A stretch of 64,000 bases of DNA, taken from Tubulanus polymorphus. Lineage: Eukaryota > Animalia > Nemertea. The position numbers and the translations under genes are program-made. The stretch is taken from positions 30,538,150-30,602,149 of the forward strand of contig NC_134026.1 in the NCBI RefSeq assembly GCF_964204645.1. The letters are read 5' to 3'. Every line of letters starts with the position of its first letter. Position 1 is the stretch's first letter. Positions 24,043-64,000 of this stretch are shown here, one piece after another. The notes beneath the pieces were generated by a model. The model had not been told where the DNA came from. It was given only the letters and a program-made list of their open reading frames with translations, and made no database searches.

Positions 24043-24625
24043 CCAGATTGGCTAATAATCAAATAAAGGAAAGCGATGCTTTAGTGATGGTTTGTGGTGA
24101 ATATAACTGGTGTCCACAACCAGGATTACTCAATATGATCGACCATTTCTTTAATAGTTATAGATACAAGGTTTCAGCGATTGCGTCTTACTCAGCAGGT
24201 AATACGTAAACTACATATAGAAATGTACGTGGAGTGTCGTAAGTTAAATTGTTAGATGTGAAAAAGGTATTACTGTATAATAAGTTAACTTAATTTTATA
24301 AGAATTAAGAGCTTTTACTATAGTGCATAGAAGCTTCCGAGCTCATTTATCAAATTAATTCTATTAGATTCTGCTCAAATATATGAAATTACCCTACATA
24401 TATCGGTTATTCTACATATATATTCCTTTTTCGGGTTAATTAATTTGACACCAGGTTAACAACGGCTCCCGATCCTCCACAACTCTTCAAGTTAAATCGT
24501 CTTATCACGTCTATGGCGAATTTAATGTTTAAATACTAATTTCCAGGAGGATTTAGCGGTATTCGCGCGAGCAGTGCGTTACGCGAAACACTATCGTGTA
24601 ACTGTTTAAACATTCTGCGTACCGA
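24043..24625 (+). pseudogene. Truncated duplicate of the FMN reductase gene
   Basis: 24052-24355 is near-identical to 20974-21280 (exon-2 3' part plus intron). Exon 1 is absent. The exon-3 start (ttccaggaggatttagcggtattcgcgcg) is present, followed by deletions. Confidence 0.85.
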
Positions 24626-24805
24626 TTTCAGTTTCCAAGAAGCAAATAAAAAAGTTGACATTCTCTATGATAAACTATGATGTACAAACATCAGTCATTA
24701 GACATCTAATCATTTTTAAAGATTGAGTTTCGTGTTGTTCTGATTTGCTACGGATCTCCATTCAACTTGCGTGGTCGCTTTGTACGTAAAAATAAATAAA
24801 CCTTG

Positions 24806-35856: not shown

Positions 35857-36299
35857 TTTGTATCGTCGCTTACCAGGTGAAAGCTCGGTGGCAGCACCGT
35901 ACGGTAAATTAGCGGAATTTCTGCGAACTGATACCTTGCGGCCTACGTTCCAAAGTGAGTGCAAAAACCCGCTATTAAGAATGGAACTTAGGATAAAGTT
36001 TATCCTTGAGCTAGAACTGTATTCAACGGTTCGACTATATTCTTGTAATCGTCAGGAATACTAGTGATGGAATTATGTGGTAGACCTATATATAAGCCCT
36101 ATAGTTCACAGCAAACTACGCAAACTAAGGGGTAATTAAGATTAGTTACAAAATAAACAAATTGAACCAAAGCAAACTAAGGGGCACTTAGATCGATACA
36201 ATCGGGATATAAGTTGAATGAGTGGCAATTAGTGCGTGGAATATAACAAAGGAAATAAATAAATTCTCGATTTTAGATTTCTTTTAATTTGTAAAGATG

Positions 36300-41600: not shown

Positions 41601-42925
41601 TGAATTGTCTTTTTGTCATAGAACTAACTATAACTATCGGTTATAGTTCTATGTTTTTATATAGTTATTTCTGATATTTTTTCACCATTGCTGAAACGAT
41701 CGATTACCAAAAAGTTTTAAGTATGTCTTCACTTCAAAAGCCATGACATTGTTTGTAACAAGGAGGGTTTCTAAATCATAGTTGAGTACGATCTAAATGA
41801 ATGGCCAAACCCGGTAACAAAAAGCCAGGGAAATTCAGACTTCATTTATTAGGTAAAATTATAATTATGAAATACTCCGCCTGGTCTCATTCGGAATCTT
41901 GACTGGAAAGAAGCCGATTCTATCGAAAATATTTCATAAAAATAACCGTTTGAAAATTCTCTGATAAAACTTGACAAAACGAACAACAACGGTTTTTTAG
42001 TATTGAACGATCGAATATTATTCTGTCAAGAAGGTTTTGATGTACATGTAATAATCAGCATCATTACAATCATGTGAAATAATTCTTTTTAGATATATAT
42101 AGATTCACTACGAATAACCGTATCGAAACAGTAGCAAATATAAATCAACTATTTTCACTGTTTTTGAATTATTTCGATTTCGTATTTCTAACACACTAGT
42201 GTCTCTAAAACTCTAATAGCACCGCCAGATATTTAAAAATCATAATTTTTTTATTATTGAATTTTGTATAAGCAGTAGTTCATATAATGATCCGTTGAAT
42301 TTAAGCCGATTCTTTACAAATATATATAACTGATGATATATCAGTAGCAGTCTCACAACATAAACACATGCGTATAAATATATATATTATTTCACAACTA
42401 TAAAATCTGCAGAGCTGTCAAATTAAAATTCATAGATCAAAATAATATTCTCTTTAAGCAAACATTACACTAATACTTATCGAATACTTCACATCAGGTT
42501 CTTCAGTTCTCTTGTATAAATATGTTCTTCCTAAAGTGAAATCCCACACTTTGAAGACCAGAAATGAAAAGTATATTGCGACCACAGAGTTTCACCTGAC
42601 GATGGAAAGAGCTGAAACGTCGCGGTTTCAATGAACTTTTATTAAATCAATTTTTCAATATTTTCCTCTTTAAAAATGTGAGAAAAGTCGCTCATCTTTC
42701 AAGGATTACAGTGTGTTTCAAAATAACAATCCCTCAACCCGATGATTTAATGAATTGGATTGTTATCCTTCAATAAGATACTGAAAAATAAGTATTTTCT
42801 GTCGCATTTCACACTGATTTCTGTTTAAATCAAACTAACATACATTATACATAGGAAGCAGTTGATTTGGTTGGAATCAGGTTTCGGTCTTCAAAACGAA
42901 TTTCACATCACAAAAACAGCTACAT

Positions 42926-43138
42926 TTATAAAACATTGCATCCACCTTTATCTTTGAAAGGGTTGTCATTTTGTTTTGCGAATCCATAAATGAGTACATC
43001 GTTTTCTTGATGTTGTTCGCAAAACTTCTTAATTTCCTCGATACATTCTGAAACAGGCATTCGCCTTACGCTAGCCTCCACTTTCAGTTGTTCGACGGCC
43101 TTACGATGCTGTTGAAGGTTCTCCTGGAATTTATTCAT
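42926..43138 (-). CDS. Heterotrimeric G-protein gamma subunit A (Ggamma1/gpc-1-like), 70 aa, CaaX CNVL
   Basis: MNKFQENLQQHRKAVEQLKVEASVRRMPVSECIEEIKKFCEQHQENDVLIYGFAKQNDNPFKDKGGCNVL has the GGL-domain pattern. The acceptor TTTCTAG lies 1 nt before the ATG. Confidence 0.93.
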   Translation of the reverse strand: MNKFQENLQQHRKAVEQLKVEASVRRMPVSECIEEIKKFCEQHQENDVLIYGFAKQNDNPFKDKGGCNVL

Positions 43139-46100
43139 TCTAGAAATAAAACAAGAAGAAACATTAAAGTTTATTGACGACTGGAAAAAGTAACACATAT
43201 AAATTGCTCCATGTTGTCGACGAGGGATGATATGATATTGATAACATGATTTTCTAGTTATAATGATTAAGTTATTTTGAATTAAGATATATCGACAATT
43301 GAATTTGACCGGCAACCAGTCTAGCCGCTCTATGACATCGACATCGACTCGCACAGTACCCCTTGAATAACGGAGAATAGTTCTATATCTAAAAACATTT
43401 TTTCAACGGTTTTTACGGTGTCAAAAAAATCAAGCTCCATTTTGTCAATTGTAGCGTGTTGTTGTAACTCGGATGCTGATCATCTCGTGAAGTTCATTTC
43501 GTTCAGATAGTTCAGTTCGTGCACCCTAAGGCAGGGCCGCCTCGATATTAAAACTCAACTGCTCTCTCCAGAAGAAATATTTTTCGTAGACCGACACGTT
43601 GTTGGCATGGAAACAGTGAAGCTAAAGTGAGGACTGGGAGCTCAGAAGAGATCGCTTAAGAATCAGTTTATCAAGTGATGTCGCAGATCAGGTTCAACCA
43701 GCCCTAGAAAACTTGTTTTCACACTGTTTTTACGATGCATCACTAACAAATGGTTCTTACGAAATAGTCTAAAGGCAGGGTGAAATTTAATGAAAGTTCA
43801 AAAGGGTATGGGAACGCTTGGGTGCATGTTGATCTCAGAATTTTGGTTTATGCAGGTAGCGCACAAACCTGGCGGGGGGGGGGGGTGCTAAGCTAAAACC
43901 CCTAAAAACAAGTTGTGTTTAGATTATCGAGTTCATGAGTAAATCGAATTGTTAAAGGTCGTTCTGGTGACCTTGCAGAAAAAAGGCCCGTTATACAAAA
44001 ATCCTCCGTACCATGATAATGATATTTAAACTAAAAAGGAAATTTCAAGACTCTCAAATTTCTAAAAAAATCATTTGATCGTGATTTTAAAAGCTTTTAC
44101 GGCTGTGTAGACTATATACATATCAATTTATTTGAGCAAATTCAAAGGCACCGTAAATAACTTTTGACAATACAATATTTGAAAACATGTTCATACACCA
44201 TAGAATACACCATAGAATATACCCAGCGTTATAAAGACAAATAAATCGGGCTGTTTGTGCTGTGAACTGCTATTTGTCAGTGATGGTACATTTTTTAATC
44301 TAGGGAACCTCATCCACGTAGAATGAGCGACGACTTGTAAAGATATAGACCGCCAAACTCTAGTGTTATTACGTGATGCAGTTAGCTGTTGTCGTATACT
44401 GCTCAATATAACTGGGTTATCTAATATCGACTCAGTTCCAGCATCGATACAGTCATCACAAAAATGTAAAGCTGACAATCGTCCAATTAGTTTGATACTA
44501 GAAAATAATATCGAAAATCCCGCAACTAATGACGAAAAATTAAGTCCGAAATGTTTCCTAATTCAATGTTTTGACCATAACAGCTATTTTCAGGAATACT
44601 GTATTCCTGAAAGATGAATTCATACTAACTCTAGAAATAGCTACATCGACATTGGACTAATTTAACCAAGATCTCTTTCATGTTCTATGGTTTCTTCATG
44701 ACGTTCGTTAACAACAGCGCACCTCGATGCATTTTCCATAATTCCACGCAATCTCTGCGGGGTAAATGGTTAGGATATCGCTCCAGAACTGCCTCCAGTC
44801 CAACCTCCAACCGCAACCATCAATTAGACTCTGACTGAAATGAGTGTTTGTTACCAATGGCAATAAAATTGCTTATTTTGCTGTGATAAGAGGATGTTAT
44901 GTGCGACGACAAGTCATTAACAAAACACCTCCAGGGTCTACTTTATACTTCACAAATTTTAATATCAATCCTAAACGTACACTCGGCAGAAAGATGAGAT
45001 CTGAACGCTGCGGTTTCATCATCAACAAACCGTCGTTTTATATTACGTAGTTGAAATTTCGATCAATCTGTTTCAAGAAAAGGAAAACATAGAAAAACCG
45101 CGTATTCTAAAACTGCGTGTTCTAAAACCGCGTGACCGAAAAAATCAAAATGGAATACAAATAAAAACACGACAAACACGATAAGGGATCCTGGGACAGG
45201 TCGATTTGCTTTCAAATAATTTAAAAAGAAATAAAGAACAATATTCATGTTCAGGTGTTTTCTTATGGAGAGGTCTGAAATGATATCGGGAACTCTAGAC
45301 AACGTTTTCAGCAATTGATTCTTATATTTCATTCCACCAAACTTCGTTTATCGGAGTTAGTCGACTATAGTCCACGGGATTGAGCACGGTCGCTGTAGTT
45401 CGGACCTGTTTCCAACATGACCGACACTGTGAAATGCGTTACGACCGAACTATAGTGCGTTCGGTTATTAGCTCTGGCCACTAGTCGACTAAACTGCGAT
45501 AAGCGAGGTTCGCCCGTCAATAGTCTCCCTTCTAGAGAAATGAAAAACACATGACGCCATAATCATCGTTATACAACAATCTTTATTGCTACTCATTTTC
45601 CGTGTTTTATGCGATTACAAACAAATCATCGAAAATAATCTTAAACAAAACCTCGAATCAAATCTAAATGTATCTAAAATTATATCCCAATCATTAGATA
45701 ATCACAATTATCCAAAAAATAAGTATTTGGTTTTTTTTTTTCTAGCGACCAAGCCCTTAAAACTAAACAGGCTTTATAGACTATATCTGATTATTGATAA
45801 TGTCTTAGTTTCAAGGAGGCGATCGATTTTTTCGTTTCCGAAAACAAAGCAGAATGTTGTATAAATGTTATTTTTCAGTACAAAATATGACCTTTACCGA
45901 ATTGCAATCCCTCAATCTATACTCGAACAAATTGGTGTTTATCTCATGATGATAATTTAAGCACTGATCCCCTGAAACAAACTCGAAATATCACAATTTC
46001 AGCTTGAAATTATTAGTAAAATCTGCAAATTACAAATCAATAACTTTGAATATGTTTTACAGTAAATTATTTTCTATGTTGTGCCTGGATATTAAGTTTT

Positions 46101-46233
46101 GATTTCTCCACGCAGAGATTATCAATCACAAATATTTCACGAGCCAAATTTATTTTCACAGAATGATTTTTCAGTAAGTATAATATATATATATATATAC
46201 ATATAAGAATAAACTAAAAATCACGAAGAAATT

Positions 46234-46503
46234 AGGTACCGGCGTCACACACCAGATGGCGCGATAACACACTAAGTTTATTTAACGTAGTGAAAATTAG
46301 TTTATTTTCGATGAGATTTGAACTTGACTTTTAGGCTTCATAATCCGAACATTATCGAACGAATCACGAATGGAATTATGATTTACTTTATCACTCGGTG
46401 TATGGTATAGATTTCCCTGAAAAAGAGAAATGGAGAAAAAACTGACTAGCTTATAACGACACCTAGCGGATCATCGCATGCCACAGTAACGGTGCCGGTA
46501 CCT
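46234..46503. repeat. Inverted-repeat-bounded element (AGGTACCGGC termini) with two convergent CTCF-like motifs
   Basis: aggtaccggc at 46234 and gccggtacct ending about 46503. CACCAGATGGCGC at 46250-46262 and GACACCTAGCGG at 46458-46469. Confidence 0.5.
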
Positions 46504-48249
46504 TATCACTGTTTTACCCTAGTCTAAATATTGATAAAAATTATTATGATAATACTTTACTGTAATAATAATAATAATAATAATAATAATAGTTATAATA
46601 ATACTTATGATAAACGTGTTGATAATGATTAATTAATTAATTATATACATGAATTAATAACTAAGTTAAAAGAAAACGTTGTACATTAAGTTAGATTATG
46701 TACGTATCTTTCTCTCTCTCCCACTATCTCTCTCTCTCTCTTCTTAGAAATACAACTAGAACTACAAAACACATAAAACTAGTTTCAAAGACACTTTAAT
46801 AAGGATTTTCTGCAGCTTGTTTTAATGCGACCTTTCATTTTAACGGTTGAGCTTTACATTTGAATTTTTAAATAATCCACGCAATTCATCTTTCTATCTT
46901 TTAGAGGAATGAACATAACTCATTAATCTGATGAAACCACTAGATTCGCACGGGATTCCGAAAGTGAATTTTAAGCAAACGGTGCATTTTACGAAATATG
47001 TTTTTTTTAAACGATGGAATAAAGCGCTTTCAATAAGATTTTGATTCATGTAGATTCCTCAGCAATAGAAAAAAAAAACGAAAAAAGAGTTTTCTAAACA
47101 TAATCACGCAAAGCAACGATAACGTCACTTAAATAAGGGGTTCCCAGAAAATAAATTCTGGGAAGATTCTGTACACGATTAAAAACCTTACTTCATCATA
47201 ACTATATCGAGGAAGTGCCACTAGAAAATTATCAACATGTTGCATCTAAATTCCTAGATTTTGAACATTCTCTAAAATGGCAAATGCAAATAGTTAAGAT
47301 AGAAGCAAATATATTCTATGAAGATATGAATGAAATAGAGAATAACTTATAATTAAAAACATCAAACATTAAAAACATCAATTAAAACATGAATGGGTCG
47401 ACAATTGTTTTTTTTTTGGTTTGTTTTCTTATTGAGAGGGAAATAAGTGCTGGTTATGCAAATAAATGTGTATGAATTAACGACAACTAATAAATAATAA
47501 ATCACATAATTAAAGAAGTTTAGAGTGTATTGCTCGCTGAGATATATTCATAACTAGATCACGTGACCACCGCCAGAAGTCACGTGCCAGATTTGATCTG
47601 CCATGGTTCAACCAAATCCGGAAGGTGACATCGCGGATTTCAAAACCATCAATTTCTGACTAATTTGTACTGACCAAAACAATTATATATGAATGATTAA
47701 ATAATAACAGTAATATTCAACTGATTATATATAACATCTATGTTAAAACACCATATATGGAAATTAAAACGCTAATAAAACGTTTACCATTTTAAAGAAA
47801 ATTCAAAAATGTCAGAATAAGACGCATTCGTAAAATGATTTAATAGTTGGAACTTCACCACACACTAACAGGTGAATCAAAGTTTTATCGTTAATAGAAT
47901 CTAACAGTTCCGTAAACGCGTGGATCTTAATTTGACTCTAGGCGGTTAAAACAATTCGGAGCAAATAACATGGAACTTGGGTCTGAAGATCAGGTCGGTT
48001 ATTCTTTTAAAGAGCTCAACCGTAAAAATTTTAAGGTCTACACAAAAAATGCCGATATTTTTAAACAACATTATAACCTAGAGAACTACTGTAATAATGG
48101 AGTACAGAATGAAATGTGTAAATTAAAATTCCTGTGGCAAAAAAAACCTATTTTAAAAATTACTTGTGACGGTGGGATGTGACTGACGAGATTCAGTCGA
48201 GAATCTCGCGAGATATCTACGTTACGTGCAACAAGGGCTACGTTTGATT

Positions 48250-48950
48250 GTGGCAATCGAGGTTTCCGCTTGTGGCAAGTGAGGATCCACCAGGTTCGCT
48301 AGTGTACATTCGGACAACGATGCCAGATTCGATTAGAATGTATCCGTAATTTTTCTATACATAAACCCTTAAGATCGCACCGAGTTTATCAAGAGCAATC
48401 ATTCACATGATATTCTATGTTGGCGGCTGAAAAATTAGCTAATTGAAATTAACGAGATTTTGATCAAGTTGTCCAATAGATGCGTACGCCACCTAGCGGG
48501 ATATCGCGGTGCAGCGCCGGTTCCTCACTGAATAATAATTTTGACAATTCGTCTGAACCGCTGACGTACTTTGAAATGTGATAGCGCAACAGTTATTGTC
48601 GCGGAGAGACTGCAACAAATCAAAATGCATAGAGATGAAGTGATCGATCACTCAATGAGTAAAGAATCATTGAAAAACTAGCCAATAAGCTACCGGAAAC
48701 GCAACTGCGGCAAGCGGAATTGCGCCAGGTTCGCTAGTGTACAACGACGTCAACGCTGGATTTTTTCTAGTCAAATATCATGTAGGAAATTTTTACCACA
48801 TCGATATGAACTGTAAAGATAACCAGAGTTTATCGAGACGCGTGATTCGCCTTTGAGATCAAAGTTCATCGTGAAAATAAACTAATTTTGTTCGGGTACG
48901 TCTGATATCTTAGTGGTGCCATCTGACGGGTTGATGGTATGCCGGTATTC
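48250..48950. repeat. Two tandem copies of an approximately 250-bp dispersed repeat (third copy at about 56238-56490), each ending in a CTCF-like motif
   Basis: ccaggttcgctagtgtaca is shared at about 48290 and 48725. gtggcaagtgaggat and ttccgcttgtgg are shared with 56238-56280. Terminal motifs CGCCACCTAGCGG 48487, GTGCCATCTGACGG 48916 and CGCCATCTAGCGG 56447. Confidence 0.65.
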
Positions 48951-49448
48951 AGATTTTTCAGAGCATCTGTGGTGTCATGTGAGCTGTGTGTCAAAAGCGG
49001 TTTAATTATTCCGATAAAGTACCACCGTCGTAGTTAAATCCCTGTTTGGAAATTCATGGTTGTCGTCGGTCGGCGTGGTGCTGGTGGTGGTTGCCGAGCG
49101 GATTTCCGCCTTAGGTTTTCAGGTTTTGTCGCTTTCTAAGCACAATTCGACTGTTCAGTTCAGTAGATAAGAGACGAATCTGTGACTGATCTGATCGCAG
49201 ACGGGGGGCTAGAACGCTGTATAGTGGTGGTGGTGGTGGTGGTATTAAACTGGTGAATCGACATCGAGCTGCACCAGACAATACCAATTGAAACAGCTAC
49301 CATCATCTTAGATTATAAATCCAGAAACTTGAAAATAAAATAACTTGTGTAAAGTGAAAATACTGTCTATTGTATATACGATGAGTTTATAGTGAGTCTT
49401 GTGTGTATAAAATGTGTCCAATGTTTTCTCACAGCGAATCGATCCATT

Positions 49449-49652
49449 TCACAATATATCACATCCCGACTTTTCCTGGAACGGGTTATTTTTCTTGTTC
49501 GGAATTCCGTTTACGAGGCAATCGTTCGGCAAGTTTTCGTCGATGAATTTCATCATGTCGGCCACGCATTCGGACACGTTTTTACGCGGAACCGATGCTT
49601 CCAACTGTAACTGTTCGAGGATTTTCTGTTGTCCCGCCACTGCACTCGACAT
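49449..49652 (-). CDS. G-protein gamma subunit B, 67 aa, CaaX CDIL
   Basis: MSSAVAGQQKILEQLQLEASVPRKNVSECVADMMKFIDENLPNDCLVNGIPNKKNNPFQEKSGCDIL. The acceptor TTACAG lies 9 nt before the ATG. Confidence 0.93.
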   Translation of the reverse strand: MSSAVAGQQKILEQLQLEASVPRKNVSECVADMMKFIDENLPNDCLVNGIPNKKNNPFQEKSGCDIL

Positions 49653-52600
49653 CTTCGCTGCCTGTAATGATAAACAACTAGAACTTAAGTCAACTTTGTC
49701 AGCGACGCTTTTAGTTTGTGTATGTATATATGAGCGAGTGAACGACCTTATTCCATTCATTCTTTACTATAGCACCTCCATTGACTACGAGGGTCTTTTA
49801 AAGTAAAAGTCAAATATGAAAACAGGTCGTTGTATTATTCGGATGTATTATCACTGACAACCCGTGAATTGAAATGAAAATTTATACGTTCAAATTCAAC
49901 TATCGTAAGTTTTGGTTAAATCATGGACTCTAACACAATTCGTAGAACGGTTAAACACAGCTATTTGAATGACGTGAAATGAAATTCGAATTGATGTAAA
50001 TCATGGTAAAGGGTGTGGCCTTTTATACTACATTAAACCGCATTGAAGCTGCCTCGAAAAATTTCTGAAAAACTCATCACCCCCTTCCTCCTATCTCTCA
50101 TCCTCTTCCTGACTATATGGACCGCTTAAATACAAATCACCAAAAAGAAACTAACAGTCGTGTTACTGAAAAATTCACAGTCCGTTTACTGACTGTCCCT
50201 CCATATCCTTCCCTCCCCTTGACTGTGGATATTGAAATAAATAGGAAACTAAACTGCAGCCCTGTTACTGACACTTATTGACTATCCCCTGCTGTTCTAC
50301 TATCCCTCCTTCCCCTTGCTTGTGGATTTTGTAAATACAAATCATGAAAATACAGTCGTGTTACTGACTCAGAGTTGTAGTAAATCTACACAACATTTTT
50401 CTGTCCCTTGTCAAACTGCGTACATATGACAGAATATGAACTGACAGTATATCAGATTCTATCAGATTCTATCGATATATGATATGGAAAAATGATCACA
50501 GTTTATGCATTGATATTTGCGACCAGTTTTTATATAGCAGTCAGTCGCAGTTTCATAAATCAAGCTTATTTTCGACGTTTCGTCTGATTATATATAACAA
50601 GCACGTATTGGATTGTGTCGTTTCGCGGTATATTCCCTAACGGTTTATGTTTAGCCAATAACTCGAGATTCTGTCGCCAATATTCCTCTCTACTCAAATC
50701 CCATTATGGATGATCATCCTGGGTCGGCTTACACGAAGCCGAATATAGACCATGTCGGAGAAGATGGCCGCCTCCCTGTGACATCATTAAATTGACTTGA
50801 TCTTAAAGTACTTTCACACCCAAACAGTTAGAAGTCAATTCCGTGATGTCAAAGGGGGATTTTTCTCTGATTTTCTTTTCAATTCGAGAGTTTTACTCTA
50901 AGACGCGTAATAGGCGTTCACACTTTAAACTGACAACTTTTGAACAGGGTCCAGGGTAGCTATTCTTCTAAAACGGAAGATTTCCTGAAATCTGAAATAT
51001 CTCGATCAACTTTATCAATACCTTCCGAGTCACGAAAAAAGGTGAATTGAATGCGTTTCAATCCGATGCCACACCCTAGCACTAGATATACCTACATACA
51101 CAACCTATCGGCAGTTTAGGGCGACCTAGCCATAAAGTAAAATTCCTCTACGTAAAAAACCCACACCCGAAAATCACTCATTAAAACAATACCGTTTAAT
51201 TATAGAATCATAGATATTTTCATAGATAACATTTTGAGTTTTGTGATTATCTGCTCATTACATCCTCTCTCCGATCAATGGTACACACTTATTGATTAAA
51301 CAGTGAGAGACGCCCTTTTCATACAAACCTATCGAAATACTGCGGTTACATTATTTATAATTGCCCAATCGGTTTCACTATTTGTGTACGCGCTTAAAAA
51401 ATACATGTCACAGCGACTCAAACACATGGATGAAATATTCTACACAGGTTATGATTTATTTCCACGTTACGACTTGATCCTAATCGTCATCTTCAGGAAT
51501 TTTAGTGTCATAATCAAGCAATAAGATGTGATACAAATAAGGGTTAATAATGATACATGAAAAACGTTTTCCTGAAGATGACAGGATAAAGTCAATATGT
51601 CGAATAAATGTGTGTCTATTTACCGTTTGTTTGATGTAACAATTATCCAAATAATTGTCTACGAAAGAGCTCGAATAAGGTTAACACGGCTCCTCGACAA
51701 CTCGGCAAAGAAAGGTTAAGAAAGATTATGATGGATAGAAAAAGTCAAAATACAACTTCGTACGCATAATCAACAGCAATTCAATTAATATGAATTCTGG
51801 TTTTAATGTATATGTATTTTTTTTCGAGAGATAAGTGACGTCAAATGTCAAATAGCTGGCGCGTTGTAATTGATGAATAATCGTATATAATCAACGTATC
51901 ATTTACAGATTGAAATATACGAGGGATTGGTTTATAAGATAGATAATTTGAATACTGCCAACGGCGTATAAATGTATATACGAGGTCTTTATGTATACCA
52001 CACCCAATTTGATATTACCGCACTGTTACCCAGCGTAGTGCCGTCGTACGCCTAGTTTTCACTGGTAAAAATGTGCACGTTTAAAAATTCAACCAGGGGC
52101 TCGTGATATTCTAAGTAGTAGAAACAATAACCCGCATAATCATTATATAAAATCCAGTAATTAAGAATGAGATATAAATTCCGAAATGTTTCCTCTTAAG
52201 TTGTGTGGTATAGTTTATTCGAGTCCATCTTCAGGAAATCAAGTCGAAACATGAAATAAAGTCTAGGAAACATTTCGGACTCTATCTTTCTTTCTTAACG
52301 CAGAATTTTTTATATCATCTTAAAAAATTATAATAATGATTTGTAATTATGAATTATGATAATGACTCATTAAATAATGAGTAAGCCCTTGGTTAAAGAT
52401 AATTACCGGTCTATAAAACTGACCCTTGTTTCGGGTTAGATACTTCAGAGCATTTTAGCCTATACAACACGCGTGATCAGTCTAAAATCCCGACTTCTCT
52501 TCAAGAACTAGAGTAACTGGACGCTCCTGACCCCTGTTCATCAAAATATTAGATCTATTGCGCATAGCTTTTCAATTCAGTAACTATTACGTGACTCGAA

Positions 52601-53877
52601 CTTCGAATATCTTCTACTAAATTTGAGTTTTGATTCAGATGCAAATGAACTGTAATCAATCATTCCGTACTGAGAGGATGGACTTACACTTTGCAACGGC
52701 ATCCAATGCCGTGGAATTAATTTATCAAAACCGTCTTTTCTTTAAAAAGTAGTAAATACACGTCTCATCAATTTCAAAATGGATCCAACATTCTCTAGTA
52801 ACTGTTGAATGATTAATGATTAGACGGATTCTACTATCTAATCCCACACTGAAGATCAGCGTTAATCAAAGATTAGTTAGATCTATTAAAACATAAACGA
52901 CTGACTGTGAAAGCATGAGATATTTCTAGATGAGAATTTCACTGATTAAACTTGAAGCAATGTCCTACGCTCGAAGGACCCTAAATATTGAGAATTAACA
53001 GCGAAACATCCGTTTGTTACACTTACAGGTGAAACGCTTCTAACCATCTTCAGAGAGATTTACTTGAAACGGAATGGATTTCAAATAAATCTCTGAAGAT
53101 GGTTAGAACTACCCTAACCGAGTGTCACTGATTTATAGTTGTTAATTGTCAACATTATGGGTATATTATTAATAGACTACGAAATGTATACATCTGATTG
53201 CGAAGAATAACGTCTCTCAATGTTTATATATATAAAGTTAGTTAATTTAGTTTATTATGTATATATATATATACTGCTAGGTTGAAAGCAAAATTTTCTT
53301 AAATTAAATGACGGATATTCCTCAAATAGAGCTGAAATCCATCAGGGCTTCCCTCCTCGGTGTGAACAATTTTTGAAGAAATAAACCCGAAAAGTTGCAC
53401 TTCAAAGAGGTTTAATGTCACAGGTTTTAACGATTTCTGTCTTGCCAAAAATGGACAACCTCAAAGTAAATACAGGGGTTCGAACCCCAGAAATCCCCCC
53501 CCCATTTTATTATCTGGAATCATTCGGAAAAATAGATAAATGAATACATACCCGACCAATTCGGTGCTGTGAGACTGACTCTCTGCTATCCTCACACGGC
53601 AGTTACTGCGAGTCTACAGCCACACCCGGCATCGTGTGGTTCCATTCGATACAATAATCAGCTGCCACACAATCGATTCCTATGAGACAAATTAGCGACA
53701 TACTCGCGCGCTCTCTCTCCATCTACAGAGTTTAAACTCGCCGCTTGCTTGAGAGCTGCATCTCTATCACCTCATGTTCAGTATCGATATCGCTGTATCG
53801 GTCACATGGAATCCGGGAATATGGATTCCAAAACTCGAAGGAGTAGAAGGCATTCAGTACCTACTGGACCCCGGACT

Positions 53878-53972
53878 GGATCCAGTGCCGCAGTTGTCAG
53901 TTACAAAAATCACCTCATTTTCATCGAGTTAACTTTGAGTCAAACCTTAACTCACAACTGTAGAACTGGAAT
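53878..53972. mobile_element. About 100-bp MITE (GGATCCAGTTCCACAGTT-type termini), inverted copy at 56802-56903
   Basis: The internal aaaatcacctcattttcatcgagttaa..gagtcaaa matches the reverse complement of 56830-56872. Decayed relatives occur at about 220-310, 380-480 and 31410-31515. Confidence 0.7.
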
Positions 53973-54291
53973 GCAAGTGAAGATTTGTAAAAGGGTCCGA
54001 CGCGTATTGGTACCGAGATCCTATGACAACCTCAGTCTTTAAGTGTCCAGGGAGATGCGACTGAAAGTCGAACGGGTTGAGAATTCGTCATACACTCGTT
54101 TCCACGGGAGTTTGATCGGGTAACGTGAAAGAAAGTTGGGAAGAATATTTGGGGCGGTAGATTCAGAAATGATTAGAAATGATTAGGCCTATCTCTTAGC
54201 GAACAGAAATGAAGAATAGCACGATAAATAACGATCATTGATTTTTAAAGAGATATTTTACAAAGTGATCATTATCGCATTAACGATCATA

Positions 54292-54650
<359 letters not shown>

Positions 54651-55888
54651 CTATGTTTTTGTTGCATCCAACGAAGTCATCAATTTGTCATCACAAACAA
54701 AATCAGCCGCCCGACTGGCGTCACCACGAGTTTATATATCACCCACGAGGATTAGAAAGTTGTCACATAACCGAAGTCGCCTCTTTTTTAAGTATATGTG
54801 TATTTGCAATTGAATTTGCTAAGTGTAAGTCCTCATTTGGATAAGTCCTGGCAGTGTGGCTGTCTCCACAGTGACCTACGTCGCTCTACGATCCAAGTGT
54901 AACCATCATCAGACACTAAGGTTCTTGGCGAAGTTAAGTCATGGTCAAGAACCAAAACATATTATTTTCAAAACGATTTTGTCTCATGATATATCATATA
55001 CTTAGTTTTATTCTCAAAAACTTTTAAATATTTCTTCACCAGTTTCTAGATATACAATGTAGCAGTTTTGATATGTTAATGCAGAATGCGCCAAGGAGAA
55101 CATACAAATACATTGTCGGGTTTAATAAAAAGCCCCAGTGCACAAATAACTCAATTTCTAGGTTACATGTTCAAACGGTAAAACATTGAAAATAAGAAAC
55201 TTTTTTCAAACCACAAGATAATGAAATAAATCAAATGATAGAAACAACGGAACTAAACTGCTACACAACTGAATTAAGCTGAATATAGAAATTAAAATAC
55301 AATGAACTGGACCGATTACAAAAAAACTGAACCGATTACAAATTGAAGCATGGTGAAACCGAGAATGCGGAAAATATCAAGCGAATTCATATGGCAACGA
55401 TCTGACGTAATTTTGGCCGTTTTCTATGATATTTTACTTCATTTATGACGGTCAGTATGACGCGTGTCACATCATTAACAAAATTTAAAAAGAATTCCCG
55501 AGAAACCAGGATATCTAAACTAAGACGTATGACTTAGATTGTGGGATTTAACTATTCTATACTCTCAGCATTATAGGCTATCACCATTTTATTGAAAAAA
55601 AAACACCCGAACCTTCGCTAAAAATACTATATTCATCGTGGAATATATTTAAAAATGTATCACCAGCAGTAATTATGTATGTATATAGTTAAATATCGAA
55701 TATCTAATACATGAAAATATGGTCGGTTTCTTTATTTCACAAATACGAACAATTCTGTTTACTTTGAGCAGGATTTCTATATAAATGTTTGTATATATTG
55801 TAAGGATGGAAGCCACAGATAGTATGAGTAAAAGCGACAATATTCTATCATATATAAATGTATTAACCGAAGGTTGTTCGTCATTTTA

Positions 55889-56104
55889 TTACAAGATGTC
55901 ACAGGATATTTTCTTCGCTTTGAACGGGTTATCATTGACTGGGAAAATCAACGGATCGTTCTGTAAACCTTCCTGGCAAAACTTCACCATTTGAGCGATC
56001 GTTTTAGACATCGGTTCACGCTGAATTTTACAATACTGCACTAATTCGCTTCGATCGTCTTGGTATTTCTGGATTAATTCAGATGTTCTACCTTGATAAG
56101 ACAT
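55889..56104 (-). CDS. G-protein gamma subunit C (divergent), 71 aa, CaaX CDIL
   Basis: MSYQGRTSELIQKYQDDRSELVQYCKIQREPMSKTIAQMVKFCQEGLQNDPLIFPVNDNPFKAKKISCDIL has the R..S, DPL, NPF and CaaX motifs. The acceptor CTTAG lies 15 nt before the ATG. Confidence 0.9.
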   Translation of the reverse strand: MSYQGRTSELIQKYQDDRSELVQYCKIQREPMSKTIAQMVKFCQEGLQNDPLIFPVNDNPFKAKKISCDIL

Positions 56105-57259
56105 GGCGTTCTTTCTTTCCTAAGCGAACGATAGAAAACAATTTACTACGATTTGTTTCTGATAGACACTAATAATTCGTGAAAGATATGTTGAAATGTA
56201 GACGGATGAACCCCAGACGGCGATGTTTATGAGGACTGTGGCAAGTGAGGATTCCGCTTGTGGTAAGCGAGGATCCACCGGGTGTCGGCGCCGATATCAA
56301 TTGAAATCTATCCAAAATCGTTCTCGAATTCCGTGAATGATAAATAAAACACGCGATCAAAGCGATTAGTGTTTATGCCTCGTATTTCTGATGAGGGGGC
56401 TAAAAATCTCGTAAGATGAACTAAATTCTGAACGAATTGATGCGCTCGCCATCTAGCGGAAAAGCCGGTGGACACGGGATCCTCGTAGATACACTAGATG
56501 AATCCAGTTACAGTGATTAACTTTGACACAGTATTTCATCATTGCATGTGACGATATATTTTATGAAACAGCCTAAACTACGTGGCGTCAATAAACTCGT
56601 TGCTTTCTATATAGTTTTCACTTGATTTTGAGAGTAATTTCGCTTTCAGAAAACAATAGGGGATCATCCTACATTTAAATACATGTATTCAGTCTCAGAA
56701 GGGGAAGATGTCGATTCTGTTGTTTTGCGGTGCATATACGTGAAGATTTAAGATAGAGGAGAGATAGCGACTCGAGGCCGTAAAGGGTTTATCTTTATCA
56801 GGGATCCAGTTTCCACAGTTATGAGTTAAGATTTGACTCAAGAATTAACTCGATGAAAATGAGGTGATTTTAATTCTAACTCACAGCCGTGCAATCCGGG
56901 TCCTGGAGATTATTCAAGCGTTTGATATTGTATCACCGCAGTAGGAAAGGGTAAAGCACGTATTAGTGGTGTATATAAATTACTTACCGTATTTGACGGA
57001 TGGTGCATTGAGGTGAAATAGTGAGTACCACAACCGTTGGAAAAATACCGTTACCACAAAATGATAGCTTCAGTTCGCAAATAAAAGTAGATATGATTAT
57101 GTAATAATGGATCGCAATGCAGGGTCGTCAATGATTAGATGACGCGTCGTACAGTGTCCTGATTCCTGACGAAACCACGAATATTATACATATAATTGTG
57201 TGAATTCCTGCAGTAATCTGTGGAGTAGTCTGCGCTGCCTCATCAGTAGCAGTAGTCTG

Positions 57260-57518
57260 CAGTCCTGAACCAGACAATTCTTTATAGTATGCTGATAAAA
57301 TACCTGTCTCGGGTGTAAGTCCTGGTCTGAACACTGCCTCCTAGCTCGACAGCAGGTATCAATACGCAGCCCTGAACCGGACGATTCTTTATAGTATGCT
57401 GATAAAATACCTGTCTCGGGTGTAAGTCCTGGTCTGAACACTGCCTCCCAGCTCGACAGCAGGTATCAATACACAGCCCTGAACCAGGCGATTCTTTAAA
57501 GGGTGCTGATAAAATATC
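57260..57518. repeat. Tandem duplication of about 107 bp (2.3 copies)
   Basis: cctgaacc..attctttatagtatgctgataaaatacctgtctcgggtgtaagtcctggtctgaacactgcctcc.agctcgacagcaggtatcaatac recurs at about 57264, 57371 and 57478. Confidence 0.9.
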
Positions 57519-58159
57519 TAATGCGACATGTGAAGTGTGGGCGATAAAAAATTGAGGGTAATGTAACTAATGACCGAATGGATGCAGGGTCCAAGGCTGA
57601 GGGTCAAGGCTGAGGCAGCAATTCGAACTAGAAAAACAATCCATCAACAGAGAATCAAACAACAATCTTTATACATAAATCAAATGATAAAACAAGAATG
57701 GAAAACTAACCATACAGAAAAGAAATCTTTATTTCATAGTAAAAAGTTTCAATATTATCAATTTAAAGCCTGTAGTTTGGAATGTGAAAACTGGATGAGA
57801 TTCAGCATCAAAATTAAAGCTACTTTAATGAAACATGTTTTCAGTGACGACTTCCCCGGAACATAAATATCTTCATGAAACTGAATCATTGCACAAAATA
57901 AATAGATTATAAATACATATGTATGTTTGTATAGTGTAGAACTGTGACTGGATGGAACAAACAGTAGACAGCGTACTCGTCTCAGAGCTCACCGTACCAT
58001 AAATACCCTCCGAGGTACAACACGTAAATTCCGGGACAGTCAAAGCAAGGATGGGTCGTTATTACAATGAATCCGAAAACGAAAATGTGTAATTGATTAT
58101 CCAGGGTCGACACAGTCTACTGTAGTTAGAGTACAAACATAAACATGGTTTTTTTTTAC

Positions 58160-58372
58160 TTATAAAATTTCACATGATTTCTTTTCTTTGAACGGGTTTT
58201 CTTTAACCGGTATGATTAACGCATCTTCGTCGAAATGATCGTAACAGAATTTCATCATTTGTTCGATACTGACAGAAACACGTGTTCGTTGTAGTTTACT
58301 GTGTTCTATCAACTCCGACCGATAATCGACCATCTTCTGAACGAATTCGGGACCGCTTCCTTGAGACGCCAT
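58160..58372 (-). CDS. G-protein gamma subunit D (divergent), 70 aa, CaaX CEIL
   Basis: MASQGSGPEFVQKMVDYRSELIEHSKLQRTRVSVSIEQMMKFCYDHFDEDALIIPVKENPFKEKKSCEIL. The acceptor TTATAG directly abuts the ATG. Confidence 0.9.
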   Translation of the reverse strand: MASQGSGPEFVQKMVDYRSELIEHSKLQRTRVSVSIEQMMKFCYDHFDEDALIIPVKENPFKEKKSCEIL

Positions 58373-58561
58373 CTATAATAACAAATAACACGATGAATCA
58401 ATTCATAACGAGTAGAGTTGTAGTAATTAAATAATGATAGATGTGCAGTTGTAAGAGTTAGTTATAAACAAACTCGCGTAAGTCGTTGTCTTTCAGTTCT
58501 TATTTCTTTTTCCAATTCAATGTACATTTAAAGTCATCATTTGGATAAGTTATCCATATAA

Positions 58562-58780
58562 GGCTAAAAAAAATTGATACCTTGTTTCTCCGCTCTGCTG
58601 AGCTTAAATGTTGACCCGGCCGGCCGCCTATCTACCCATACATTACTTTTTTAAAAATCGTGATCAATTTTACCATAACAGACCCGGCCGCTATAGAAAT
58701 GAACTGTTTATGAATTTTATCATATTTTACAAAAATGACCCGGCCGCTGCGGAGAAACAAGGTATCATTTTTGTTTAGCC
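58562..58780. mobile_element. PIF/Harbinger MITE, second (inverted) copy, TSD TAA
   Basis: taa|ggctaaaaaaaattgataccttg ... caaggtatcatttttgtttagcc|taa, the reverse complement of 38880-39098. Confidence 0.9.
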
Positions 58781-61700
58781 TAATAGTCATTCCAACTATG
58801 ACACCGTTTAAGCGAGTTTCACTGATATTGAATATTTATCAAAAAATAAGTTTGTTAAGAGTCAACTATAAAACTAACATAAGATAAGAATTAAATCTAA
58901 GAGAAACTGATATCCGTCCTAATGCATGATTATAATCTCAGCGTTAACATGAAGGCCTGTGTTATATATTAAACGATGAATTTGGATGTTATTACGTGCT
59001 TACCTTTTTCAGAGTAAGAGCTATAAACTGCTGGTTTCAGAGTAACAACTACGCCCGGTTTGGTTAGTGTTAGCAGGGAATTCATCCCCAGCACATCCCA
59101 GCGAACTATTACTATATATACATGTTTGTAGTACGGTTTACACCACATGTACAAGTCATTAAAAGATATGTTTTTCTGATTATTAGCAATAGAGAAGGAA
59201 GATGTGAAGGTTAGGTTTAATAGGGTTGAATAGGGAATGATAGGGATCCTTAACCACAAACATGCATTAGGAAGGTAATAGATAATTGACAGTTAATCGT
59301 CAGTTTTGAGATATCTTTCCAATCATGAGGAAGTGAAGTGTTTATCATGTTGTAATTATTCTATAATACTAAAAAAAAAGTGCATTGATTTCAAAATAAT
59401 AAAATCTAACTAAAACACGAGCAAAACAACAGAACAACAAGACACATAGGGCCAGCGCTTCAACCATATAGGCCTACACGACATTTTATTATGAAAGACC
59501 CCGATCCAGACCAGTTAACTAGGATCCATTCAACATCGGGCAGGCACAAATGATCTGCATTCAGCTGTCGGATCAACAGTATTTGGGGATAAAATAGTGT
59601 CACAGAAATATTCAAAACTAATTTTATTAATTTGATTGAGTTGTTAAAACTGACCATCTATATACATAAATAAGACTTACTTTAATGAAGTAACCTTGAT
59701 TTATAAATGAAGATCTTGTTCAAATAATTGCAGTCTGTGAAATCTGAAAGATGTAGAAATATATGATTTCATCAACTCATCACTGTTGTTGTATCAGTTC
59801 AGAAAACTCCCAACAATTCTAGACTAAATGTTAGTTTTTTATGACAGATCTAGTGAGGTATTGTTGATGCGGAATGAGCGCCGCACAGGGTATAACTTTC
59901 AGGTAACACGCTGAGCTTTTCTGACAGGAAGGACCTGTTGTTTGGAGCTCAAACCCATCAACTGTTGTCATTGAGTGATGAGAGAAGGCACTCGACCACT
60001 TTGGCTCCCGTGATGGGCCCAATCACCATCCGGCAAACACCACCTTTTTCTCTTCTTACTTTATCATTACTACTAATAAATGTAATGCTATAAACATAGT
60101 TAATAACCTTGACTTTACTCTACTGTAAAATTTCAATGTAATTTGAAATGTTATATTTTACGAAGGCTATAAAACATTGCTATGTAGACAAAACACTTGT
60201 ACAGGAAGTAAAATGGTAAACACGACATAGCCTTTGCCTATACCATATAGGCTAATAAGGTACTGCCTCCACTTGACCTTCTCATCTTCCTATCAACATG
60301 TGACTCTGAAAACCTAGCTCTATATTACAATTAAAACCTGCTGCCTGGTTAAAGCCTACCTTAATCTAATTAACGTTTAGGAAAATGAGTCTACGCCTTG
60401 TTTGCTTGCCGATTGAAATAAAATGGTGGCGAATGATCGTGGTTGGGGTGGCTCCAGCCTCCACACAACGCGATGTGAGAAAAATTCTTGGCTACCGAAT
60501 GAGTTGTCGCAATACAGAATTCATGAAACCGGATCGGTATAGAACCAGCGCACCACTCGCCTCCTATCATGTCACAGATTTAAATCAGATATACTAGATA
60601 TACCAAATGTCATTGCAAAGTCAGGCGGGGTTTTCAACCAACCCGTACTTGTAGTTGTGTATACGCCGACATTTGACGATGTAACGAAACCAGTTCTAAT
60701 ATTTTTCGGAGCATTCCTATAATTGTATTGCATTATTGCATCATCACGTTGTTGTAATCTTCATTGCATAACTATTATCAAACTATCCCGGGTTATCCTT
60801 GGAGTAATTATCTTCTAAAGGGTATAATTACTGCGACGTAGAGTGAGAGATTACAGTATCCACTGAGATATATTTCCTGTTCTGCTCGGGAATGAGGACA
60901 ATTACACAACCAGGCACTCGTGGTGTCCGGGTTCTGGGTTCAGGCGGCTGAGGAACTTGGAAGTCACTATTCAGTTCACGGTATTTTCTACTAAGAAGAA
61001 ATTGAAAATTAGGTCCTACGCTTTCAATTGCGAGGAACTTAAAAATAGAGAAAATTAAGGGCGGATTTGGGATGGGAGAGCCCATTGTGCCAAGACTGAA
61101 ATCCATCAAATGGTTTTTCTGAGTGTGGGAGTGCAGAGACGTACAAATTCATCAACTTTTTGGGTCCCGTTTATTGGTGCATTTTCAGTGCTGGAGTGCG
61201 CCTAATACATATATTGTCATATTGGACAATAAAGTGTCATTTTGGGATATGACAAGTTCTTCAAAGGTAGCCCCATGGATCTACGCCTGACGTATTACGT
61301 TCAACATGTATAATTAACACGTTTAAGTGCGATTCGTGCTAATTACCGGTTCGAATTATCAATTTACAAACCGACATTTTCCTGGGTGAAACTGTTATCA
61401 CCTCTAATTATAAGTAGAGATTGGTTTAATATGTTCCCATGACTACAAATTCCATTTTCAAAACATTACAAGAAAATAGTTCGGAGGCATGGAAACGTAT
61501 CAAACAGAATGGAGGATCTATTTTCTCTATTTTAAACTGAAGTTTGTAAATTGGATTTAATAAAGCGACTGCACTGATCATTTTATTCGCCAAAAACTGA
61601 ACGAAATATTTAAGAAAAACTATTTGCAAGAATTAAAAAATGTGAGGTGAAATCTCGAGTATTGCGGGTGGGTCACAAAAGGTTCATATTCTGACAAAGG

Positions 61701-63627
61701 TTACGACGTCCTTGGAATTTGTGTTCATACTTGCACGTACGCATCCTTACCCCGCAGCAGGAAAGCGTTACCGAGGTTACCCAACTATTTATATTGACAA
61801 ACATCTCTCGCTGGCGTTAATGAAACCGGTGGTCGACTAGGACACTGGTGGTGATGAACCCATCAAATCGGGCATCATCAGAAATATCAACTCATCACGC
61901 TAATGCGTATTCTTTATCATTCACCTTGAGCGTATCACGGCTCAGCCCCGGCCGTAGTTTCACACATTTACGTCTCAACGGTAAAATACATGTAGGCTTA
62001 CTCCAGAATAAAGTTTATCCATTCCTACACACTGAAACGATGTTTCTAAACATTATATGAGTCACTTATCTCTGATTAAACTTGAGTGAAAGAAGACCTT
62101 TTCTAGTGGTCATTCAATAATGTTTATAACGGAATGAAATGGGATGTTACCGTTTGACGCCTTTTTAGGATTCTCAAAATTGTCACCGAGTCTTTGCATC
62201 CAACGTCCAATTGAAAGACATTAGTATAGATTGTCCAGTTAATTCACTATTAATTAACACAGCGGAACCTCGTTATAACTAACGATCCACAGAATACGTA
62301 GAATTTTGTCCAAATAAAACGATCTCAACGAGCTATTATTGTTATACTGGTTATAACGAATTTTCAGGTCCCGTGAAGTTCGTTTGTGTTAAGTGAGGTT
62401 CCAGTGTAGAAAGTCGAACTCGGTCCGAACGAAATCCGATTCAATTTATAAGAATTAACGAGAATATAACATTAAAAAGAAATTTATTATTCGCGAGTAT
62501 CAACAAACATAATAAACGATTTTTACATTATAAAGTCTAGAGAAAACCAGTTTTATTACTTCAGTCTAAAACCGGATAACGCGAGAGAGGCATTTCCTGG
62601 AATCTGTTCGCGTATAGAATTAGGGTGGGAGGTCTGGTGATCGCTCGCTCGCTCGCTCGCTCGCTCGGCATACATCCAATGTGTCACCAGAACCGTCCTT
62701 TATTTTTGATTAATAATCCAATGAAACAAATAAACAAAATAATTTTACGAAGAAACGTTCGATACTATAGTAGTGTTAATCAACTCGTTCGAAATCACGT
62801 ATCTATTACGTCAGTGTCACTGTGACGTCACAGATCGCTAATGATGTTTACTACACGAGAATCCAACCAGTCGCGATAGAAATGTCACCTTTGCCGCTTC
62901 CTATTAGTACACAGCGATAAACACTATGTTTACGATGAGAGATAACCTTCACGTAGCGATATTTCCTCCCGAAAATTCCATCGAAAAACAACAGTTCCAA
63001 CGAGCTTCCGACGTACGTCCAACGACTGTCGGTGTCAGTAGTTGTAAGTTCTGGGTTCTAGGAACCACTAAAATGTGTTGATGTTCTGTTTATCTGCGGA
63101 AAACAAACTCGGCTGTTTATCGTTTCCGTTTCGTAGTAATCTCTCACATCACACACACCAGAGAGCCGACTTGTAAATATATATGTAAAATGCGTATCTG
63201 GCGTTTGACAACTGTAACAGGAAAATTAAATCATGTTTAATTAACATCCTTATAAACAATCATTATTTTTATCGATATTAGAAATGATTATATGTGTTCA
63301 GGCTCGAGTTGCTCAAAGTTAAGCTGATTAAATTACTGATAAATGACAATTAAAACATCATTGCTACCACTTTGTAAATCCGACATTGAACAACCGATGC
63401 CTGGAGGTTTAACTTCAACTGATGCTTACCCTTTATAAAGACTGTACAAGGCGCATAGTATTATGAATATATTTTAAGTCGAGACCCGAATTTATTTAGC
63501 CATCCATCGGCTCATCTCTGTCTGACTCCAGTACTGTATCTCTGGAGTTACCAGTCGTCAAGATGACGGGTCATCAAACCATCTTCTCATAGATTAAATG
63601 CCATAAAAAATCTAGAAATATCTGTTC

Positions 63628-63938
63628 AGACGGTTAATGGGATCATTGGATGCGGATCATCGCAGCATACTTGTTTATAGTAATGCATTACATCCTCATC
63701 AGCATCACTCGTTGCATTCGGGAACTGTAAAACAGAAATATAAACGAAACATTAATTTACAGGATTTAGAGATGTGGATTCGAACCCGATGGTATTGAGA
63801 CTCGGTCGTGGTACTTACGCGAACAGTGATGCAGCTAAAATCTTCAGTTGATAAAGCACGACCTGCGGCGATGTCGTTGTCATTAACTGCTGCTTTTTTG
63901 TCGCCGAGAAGTTTCACCAACTTTTCCGTGCGATCAAC
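63628..63938 (-). CDS. Probable internal or terminal exons of an unidentified gene continuing beyond the window
   Basis: TTTTGCAG|GTTGAT.. (VDRTEKLVKLLGDKKAAVNDNDIAAGRALSTEDFSCITVR)|GTAAGT at about 63818, then TTTTACAG|TTCCCG.. (FPNATSDADEDVMHYYKQ..). The frame is assumed and the family was not recognised. Confidence 0.45.
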
Positions 63939-64000
63939 CTGCAAAACACGCCAGTTATATTCTATATCAATAAATCGCCTGAAGGCAAATGGTATATCGG

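What the first reader, a model, noticed from the sequence alone, without database searches (positions are those of the whole stretch)
42926..58372. Tandem array of four divergent, single-coding-exon G-protein gamma genes
Seen: four same-strand ORFs of 67-71 aa within about 15.5 kb, each with the G-gamma pattern (R-x-x-V/M-S, D-x-L, NPF, CaaX ending in L). They fall into two pairs. A/B share EQLxxEASVxR..VSEC..ND.L..G and resemble Drosophila Ggamma1. C/D share QG..E..QK..D.RSEL..K.QR and D.LI.PV. Known: Drosophila and C. elegans each have only two G-gamma genes, and vertebrate GNG genes have an intron inside the CDS, which all four here lack. Inference: an old local expansion giving this invertebrate extra beta-gamma combinations, with C/D possibly an undescribed subfamily. 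ORFs this small are easily missed by annotation.
Basis: partly seen in the sequence, partly recalled or inferred. Interest (0 to 1): 0.85.

Follow-up and report, generated by a model that had tools for sequence, protein, structure and literature searches.

The report
One exon selects among G-gamma subunits
In this invertebrate one short non-coding exon is joined to at least three different exons that each encode a whole G-protein gamma subunit, so a single gene likely chooses by splicing between an ordinary gamma subunit and members of an apparently unnamed class also found in other worms and molluscs.

Summary
The four G-gamma reading frames are real (all pass Pfam PF00631, all end in CaaX-L), but they are not four independent genes. 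Each start codon sits 0-15 nt behind a splice acceptor, and contigs of one run (X3, RNA-like) join one 63-nt non-coding exon (59681-59743) to D, C and A through GT-AG introns of 1.3, 3.6 and 16.5 kb; no such joint was seen for B, which stays open. So 3 of 4 are whole-protein alternative last exons of one transcription unit, the layout known from zebrafish Ugt5a. A is the conserved spiralian 'gamma-1-like' protein (69% identical to Capitella's). C and D belong to a distinct short-linker G-gamma class with relatives in Paralvinella, Crassostrea and Macrostomum; in Paralvinella the A-type and C/D-type proteins share one scaffold, so the linkage is likely old. A, C and D are absent from a 15-billion-protein collection. 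No paper on such a G-gamma locus was found, and this scan had not reported one on other DNA. Limits: one RNA-like run, contigs only, no G-beta binding test. Verdict: new variant of known kinds; interest 0.6.

The parts
60360..60704 (-). Upstream non-coding exon (holds four short upstream ORFs that all end inside it); may not be the only first exon
   Evidence: X3 contig 60360-60704 and GT-AG joint 60360 to 59743; upstream ATGs
59681..59743 (-). Shared 63-nt non-coding exon; no ATG, in-frame stops before every G-gamma start; donor AAA|gtaagt
   Evidence: joints to D and C, loose end at A equal to its last 29 nt
58160..58372 (-). Exon D: whole short-linker G-gamma CDS, 70 aa, CaaX CEIL; acceptor directly at the ATG; 3' UTR contig reaches 57956
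   Evidence: (intron 1308 nt)
55889..56119 (-). Exon C: 15 nt leader plus whole short-linker G-gamma CDS (56104-55889), 71 aa, CaaX CDIL; 3' UTR cover ends between 55202 and 55045, ATTAAA at 55126
   Evidence: (intron 3561 nt)
49449..49661 (-). Exon B: acceptor-like site at 49661 plus whole G-gamma CDS (49652-49449), 67 aa, CaaX CDIL; splice partner not shown
   Evidence: unbroken X3 contig 48849-49729 without a joint
42926..43139 (-). Exon A: 1 nt leader plus whole conserved 'gamma-1-like' CDS (43138-42926), 70 aa, CaaX CNVL; 3' UTR runs past 42500
   Evidence: (intron 16541 nt)
62679..63938 (-). 3' end of the upstream neighbour, likely GADD45 (exons 63819-63938, 63430-63724, 62679-63211); context, not part of the G-gamma unit
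   Evidence: joints; collinear weak matches to the last two exons of the GADD45 gene beside the A-type gene in L001

Best explanation
A shared non-coding exon is spliced to three alternative last exons (D, C, A), each holding a complete G-gamma coding sequence and its own 3' UTR, and B is likely a fourth, rarer choice. Choice of acceptor, likely coupled to use of that exon's poly(A) site, would decide which gamma subunit a transcript makes. A is the ordinary spiralian gamma-1-like subunit; C and D are a duplicated pair of an old short-linker class. All four are predicted to be geranylgeranylated and to pair with G-beta, and their different tails and first helices would tune membrane affinity and partner choice. 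The layout likely arose by duplication of a one-exon CDS with its acceptor behind a single promoter. Shown: ORFs, family, acceptors, three joints, class of C/D. Inferred: RNA nature of run X3, B's use of the shared exon, mutual exclusion per transcript, prenylation, G-beta binding, cell-type choice.
For: Joints with GT-AG ends from donor 59681 to 58372 (D) and 56119 (C) in X3 and in none of X1, X2, X4; X1 covers the stretch flat at about 40-50x like DNA. The contig carrying exon A begins with the last 29 nt of the shared exon. The shared exon has no ATG and stops every upstream frame. Relatives of A also have an unbroken CDS (8 of 9 loci whole, 1 cut by the contig end) and 5 of 9 loci, about three independent cases, have an acceptor 1-8 nt before the ATG, so the duplicable unit is old. 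The best 19 of 150 hits of a C+D profile all have the 6-residue linker between D-x-L/F and NPF, 29 of 150 in all; named ones are from Paralvinella, Crassostrea and Macrostomum. A profile of 18 such proteins matches solved G-gamma-2 at 73 bits over almost its whole length. Precedent for the layout: zebrafish Ugt5a1-5a4 (PMC2819257, section 6 read).
Against: All splicing evidence comes from assembled contigs of one run of one sample whose library type is not on record. No joint to B was seen: its contig runs unbroken 68 nt past the acceptor, and B's acceptor is unremarkable (120 of 805 AG sites are YAG with as many pyrimidines; D's scores the same). The exon-1 joint is much shallower (355) than the joints below it (948, 749, 129) and 41 joints were not shown, so other starts may exist. 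No poly(A) tails were seen, and D's contig ends at 57956 with no canonical signal near it. The short-linker group has 90/92 support, below the starred level, was collected with a C+D profile, and the tree has no GNG13 row. C and D carry Arg where 16 of 16 relatives have Val/Ile/Leu in the first helix, which may weaken ordinary G-beta pairing.
Confidence: 0.8

Rival explanations
1. A, C and D share the exon, but B is a separate gene with its own promoter nested in the long intron (or B uses both routes).
For: X3 cover of B starts at about 49729, only 68 nt above the acceptor, with none at 49953-50200 and no joint. B alone is on record as an NCBI/UniRef protein. Ugt5a5 and some fly shared-promoter genes keep own first exons.
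Against: B has an acceptor-like site 9 nt before its ATG like the other three, every A pre-mRNA must pass it, and contigs drop rare forms (tool text).
Confidence: 0.4
2. Four independent genes; the joints to C and A are minor read-through from D's promoter.
For: Only one run was examined, and 41 joints and 590 loose ends were not shown.
Against: The main contig of A itself begins with the shared-exon tail and no other leader appeared among the 4 loose ends; the joint to C is as deep as C's exon contig (948 against 737).
Confidence: 0.08
3. C and D are no longer ordinary G-gamma subunits: they bind a different beta-propeller partner or act as poor or competing partners.
For: Pfam scores are low (35 bits) and cover only residues 21-71; the Glu of the EQLxxE motif is His/Gln/Asn/Tyr in the whole class, and C/D put Arg at a hydrophobic helix position.
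Against: Both helices are predicted (residues 3-25 and 32-45, pLDDT about 80); Arg, Ser, Asp-x-Leu, NPF and CaaX are kept; the class profile matches G-gamma-2 strongly.
Confidence: 0.15
4. The common leader is added in trans (spliced leader or trans-splicing between transcripts).
For: Contigs cannot tell cis from trans splicing.
Against: The leader lies in cis, 1.3-16.5 kb upstream on the same strand, with a canonical donor and its own upstream intron; no Rfam family matched 41000-64000.
Confidence: 0.03

Closest known systems
Zebrafish Ugt5a1-5a4 and Ugt5b1-5b4 clusters (PMC2819257; abstract, passages and section 6 read)
   Same: A common 5' non-coding exon is spliced to several mutually exclusive exons, each holding a whole ORF; origin by duplication of the coding exon.
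   Different: Those are close enzyme paralogues in fish; here the choices are signalling subunits only 34-51% identical and of two old classes.
Drosophila genes that share a promoter and 5' non-coding exons (130 genes; PMC4528330, passages read)
   Same: Shared non-coding exons with separate coding sequences; some members also have their own promoter, as B may.
   Different: The term Ggamma does not occur in that paper's main text; its supplementary list was not read.
Protostome GNG-cluster G-gamma ('gamma-1-like'; Capitella R7UFK4, Babylonia XP_076462287.1)
   Same: A is 48/70 identical to the Capitella and 41/70 to the Babylonia protein, with the same unbroken CDS and acceptor in related loci.
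   Different: The published picture, seen only as cited in bioRxiv 2023.09.14.557824 section 14, is one GNG-cluster orthologue plus one GNG13 in protostomes; here there are four GNG-like exons in two classes.
GNAO mutually exclusive last exon pairs (PMC5896119, passages read)
   Same: A G-protein subunit gene diversified by duplicated last exons.
   Different: GNAO swaps only the C-terminal part; here the whole protein is swapped.
Mammalian G-gamma isoforms with different pre-CaaX tails (PMC8351738 abstract and introduction; PMC10590752 passages)
   Same: Tails differ as in mammals: A ends K-D-K-G-G-C, close to low-affinity G-gamma-9, while C has a longer basic tail with Ile.
   Different: Mammals use 12 separate genes; the effect of the tails here is a prediction by analogy.

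Membership tests
G-protein gamma subunit (Pfam PF00631) | Profile score above the curated cut-off | tested here: met
   60.7, 56.8, 35.6, 34.9 bits against 27.1, 4 of 4
G-protein gamma subunit (Pfam PF00631) | D-x-L and NPF motifs, C-terminal CaaX | tested here: met
   invariant in 4 of 4; X = Leu predicts geranylgeranyl (PMC10590752 figure legend)
G-protein gamma subunit (Pfam PF00631) | Stand-alone protein of about 70 aa, not a GGL domain fused to a larger protein | tested here: met
   spliced upstream exons are non-coding with in-frame stops; for B the upstream exon is not known
G-protein gamma subunit (Pfam PF00631) | Two helices and an extended tail | tested here: inconclusive
   AlphaFold2 of C gives helices 3-25 and 32-45/46; fold searches cannot single out G-gamma among plain helices
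G-protein gamma subunit (Pfam PF00631) | Dimer with G-beta; prenylation in vivo | not tested
Protostome GNG-cluster 'gamma-1-like' group | Groups with named annelid and mollusc orthologues (exon A) | tested here: met
   69-80% identity to ten relatives; inside a 99/89 group with Capitella, Paralvinella 539g01021 and gastropods
Protostome GNG-cluster 'gamma-1-like' group | Groups with the same orthologues (exon B) | tested here: inconclusive
   inside the same 99/89 group but on a long branch, at most 48% identical; no close homologue
Protostome GNG-cluster 'gamma-1-like' group | Long linker (8-9 residues) and Glu of EQLxxE (exons C, D) | tested here: not met
   6-residue linker and Tyr/His
GNG13 class | NPW motif (recalled hallmark) and closeness to G-gamma-13 | tested here: inconclusive
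   all four have NPF; 0 of 150 hits have NPW; class profile scores 58 bits on G-gamma-13 against 73 on G-gamma-2; no GNG13 row in the tree
Ugt5a-type shared non-coding exon cluster | Whole ORF in one exon behind an acceptor | tested here: met
   4 of 4
Ugt5a-type shared non-coding exon cluster | One common non-coding exon spliced to each coding exon | tested here: met
   3 of 4 (A, C, D); B not shown
Ugt5a-type shared non-coding exon cluster | Separate polyadenylation and a single promoter | tested here: inconclusive
   separate 3' UTR contigs and hexamers; contigs show neither starts nor tails

The most novel reading that the evidence does not exclude
Spiralians keep an ancient 'gamma-selector' locus beside GADD45, in which one promoter and a cell-type-specific choice of last exon switch G-protein signalling between the ordinary gamma subunit and a third, so far unnamed class of animal G-gamma, in annelids, molluscs and flatworms alike.
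Probability: 0.3. Interest if true: 0.78.

Novelty: new variant of a known kind. Interest (0 to 1): 0.6.

Why it matters
G-gamma identity tunes G-beta-gamma signalling in mammals, and protostomes are described as having about two gamma subunits. This locus shows more, in two old classes, chosen by splicing from one unit instead of by separate promoters. It explains why gene catalogues miss them (70-codon exons that share a leader), points to an overlooked G-gamma class in worms and molluscs used as neurobiology models, and gives a compact system in which isoform choice can be read from ordinary RNA-seq junctions.

Tried and rejected
No whole genome was held, so other G-gamma or G-beta genes of this animal could not be counted. 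No RNA holder was listed on record. Word-based homologue searches found nothing for C and only B itself for a B+D alignment; only the HMMER search reached the C/D relatives. Prokaryote genome scans gave no C/D relative and one chance hit in a bacterial gene for the A type (L010). None of the 9 metagenome loci holds a second G-gamma exon, but they have only 0.1-2.7 kb upstream, where the extra exons would lie. A docking-site/selector RNA pairing model for exon choice was no better than shuffles (6, 11 and 6 of 12 shuffles as good). The flanks of the four exons keep no clear DNA similarity (1 of 12 comparisons at 7 of 200 shuffles, the rest weaker). Fold searches were uninformative. No Rfam match. 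A PDB search with one exon of the upstream gene gave no GADD45 hit; that name rests. Parts of the introns without X3 cover were not used as evidence. One tree run failed on a naming error and is not used. Paper searches for a G-gamma cluster or shared-exon locus and for GADD45-GNG linkage found no paper describing either, judged from listings; Krishnan et al. 2015 is not held.
Full report
Observation. All pass the Pfam G-gamma cut-off and match solved G-gamma chains where tested (A, C, D); the ESM Atlas also puts C and D with G-gamma clusters at 0.90-0.91. They are 4 of 58 ATG ORFs of 60-80 aa in the window and the only ones ending C-x-x-L. No fifth copy lies in the window. Identities are 34-42% between pairs except C/D at 51%. 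Synonymous sites are saturated (pS 0.72-1.0) while pN is 0.29-0.47 (protein-guided alignment lowers pN somewhat), and the flanks share no clear DNA similarity: old copies under purifying selection.

Each ATG follows a pyrimidine-rich tract and AG at 1, 9, 15 and 0 nt. Four runs hold the region, none on record as RNA. Laid on 54800-64000, X1 is flat at about 40-50x outside repeats and unspliced, like DNA; X3 shows GT-AG joints and exon-shaped cover, so I take it as RNA (inference). In X3 one donor, 59681, joins to D (intron 1308 nt, contig depth 749) and to C (3561 nt, 948), and an upstream exon 60360-60704 joins to 59743 (355); none of these joints is in X1, X2 or X4 (41 further joints were not shown). 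Laid on 42500-50200, the X3 contig that carries A begins with 29 letters that are exactly the end of that same exon (checked), an intron of 16541 nt. The shared exon is 63 nt, has no ATG and stops each upstream frame. Depths are per contig and do not rank the isoforms. B is covered by an unbroken contig (48849-49729, depth 15.8) with no joint at 49661; contigs drop rare forms, so this neither shows nor excludes splicing to B. RNA-like cover at 45.6-48.4 kb, ending near an AATAAA at 45587, could be a long B 3' UTR (inference; the contigs have no strand). All of this is one run of one sample.

What the proteins are. A has nine homologues at 71-80%; named cluster members are Capitella, and for related loci Paralvinella, Batillaria, Pomacea, Babylonia ('gamma-1-like') and Nucella. 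A is 48/70 identical to Capitella and 39-41/70 to gastropods, so the animal is likely an annelid or a close spiralian. Related loci show the same unbroken CDS (8 of 9 whole) and, in 5 of 9, an acceptor 1-8 nt before the ATG (L002, L004 and L009 are near-copies). A C+D profile against 1.84 billion representatives gave 217 hits, 8 at E up to 1e-10. The best 19 of the 150 listed, and 29 in all, have six residues between D-x-L/F and NPF instead of eight or nine. In a 59-row tree (14 fragments and near-duplicates of 58 non-vertebrate-like hits left out, 3 of 91 vertebrate-like hits kept) 26 of 27 short-linker rows plus two others form one side of a 90/92 branch that holds C and D (99/97 as a pair); A and B fall in a 99/89 group with the gamma-1-like proteins. 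Named short-linker members are Paralvinella KAK2147727.1, Crassostrea XP_078317941.1 (automatic name 'gamma-12-like') and Macrostomum PAA72924.1 (4 of 10 clusters looked up carried a name, two labels informative beyond 'hypothetical'). The class is true G-gamma, nearer G-gamma-2 (73 bits) than G-gamma-13 (58 bits) by profile, but no GNG13 row was in the tree and the rows were chosen by a C+D profile. Exact look-up found only B of the four in a 15-billion-protein collection.

Age of the locus. The window's upstream neighbour matches, exon by exon and in order, the last two exons of a gene beside the A-type gene in L001 (E 0.036 and 0.012), and another exon of that gene matches GADD45 (E 5e-8). 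GADD45-GNG linkage in vertebrates is recalled, and two searches found no paper for it.

How it likely works. One promoter region between the upstream gene and 60704 would make a pre-mRNA in which the shared donor picks D, C, B or A; use of that exon's poly(A) site would end the transcript, so each mRNA makes one subunit. Making A needs three upstream exons to be skipped. A pairing-based selector was not found, so ordinary splice and poly(A) regulation is the default guess. Leu-ending CaaX boxes predict geranylgeranylation (PMC10590752, passages). In mammals the five or six residues before the CaaX set membrane affinity (PMC8351738, abstract and introduction); A's tail resembles low-affinity G-gamma-9 and C's is longer and more basic, so the isoforms would differ in membrane behaviour (prediction). 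The changed first helix of C/D may alter G-beta preference. Because the ancestral gene already had its whole CDS in a last exon, copying that exon with its acceptor gives a new isoform under the old promoter, the route proposed for Ugt5.

Comparison and novelty. The layout is known: zebrafish Ugt5a1-5a4 (PMC2819257, section 6 read) and 130 fly genes with shared promoters (PMC4528330, passages). The family is known. I found no paper on a G-gamma locus built this way or on the short-linker class in seven searches judged from their listings; the library lacks most subscription journals, Krishnan et al. 2015 was seen only as cited (bioRxiv 2023.09.14.557824, section 14 and passages), and that preprint's supplementary tree, not seen, sampled Crassostrea and may contain the class. 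PMC3971589 and PMC4982115 (passages) added only context. Six look-ups in this scan's earlier findings returned no G-gamma locus.

Verdict. New variant of a known kind; confidence 0.8 in the main reading; interest 0.6.

Noticed in passing
window 62679-63938 (-); L001 2150-4799 (-): GADD45-like gene next to the G-gamma locus in both the window (upstream, same strand) and L001 (downstream, tail to tail); the vertebrate GNG12/GADD45A and GNG7/GADD45B pairs are recalled, not checked.
   Followed up: partly
window 30455-36051 (-): Multi-exon gene that looks like Cables (name recalled from motifs; Pfam gave no match).
   Followed up: partly
window 37632-38792 (-): Single-exon galactosyltransferase (PF01762, 130 bits) between Cables and exon A.
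   Followed up: partly
window 2949-14486 (+) and 4634-7531 (-): Fibronectin-III repeat receptor gene, likely a receptor tyrosine phosphatase, with a 965-codon single-exon RING/B-box (TRIM-like) gene nested on the other strand.
   Followed up: partly
window 20974-27639 (-) and 27396-28219 (+): A duplicated small secreted-looking gene without a Pfam match (79-89% DNA identity, one copy with a Thr-rich repeat) and a peptidoglycan-recognition/amidase gene.
   Followed up: no
window 58557-58785 and 38876-39099: Short inverted-repeat element of very high copy number (summed depth about 170,000 in X1) sitting 190 nt above D's acceptor; a second copy lies at the galactosyltransferase gene.
   Followed up: no
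window 45600-48400: RNA-like cover of depth 9-39 inside the long intron, and loose ends at 43325, 45371 and 46931 whose letters are not in the window: long B 3' UTR, another transcript or allelic insertions.
   Followed up: partly
window 57956: D's contig ends here with no canonical poly(A) hexamer close upstream (nearest are downstream at 57829 and 57733).
   Followed up: no
L005, L007, L008 (first 150 nt before the ATG): Near-identical gastropod-type genes whose leaders diverge at an AG 44 nt before the ATG, as if alternative 5' exons or an unspliced form were present.
   Followed up: partly
proteins P0044, P0047, P0051, P0053: These short-linker proteins run on past the CaaX with Trp, while the RefSeq oyster protein stops there: likely TGA read as Trp by a microbial gene caller.
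   Followed up: no
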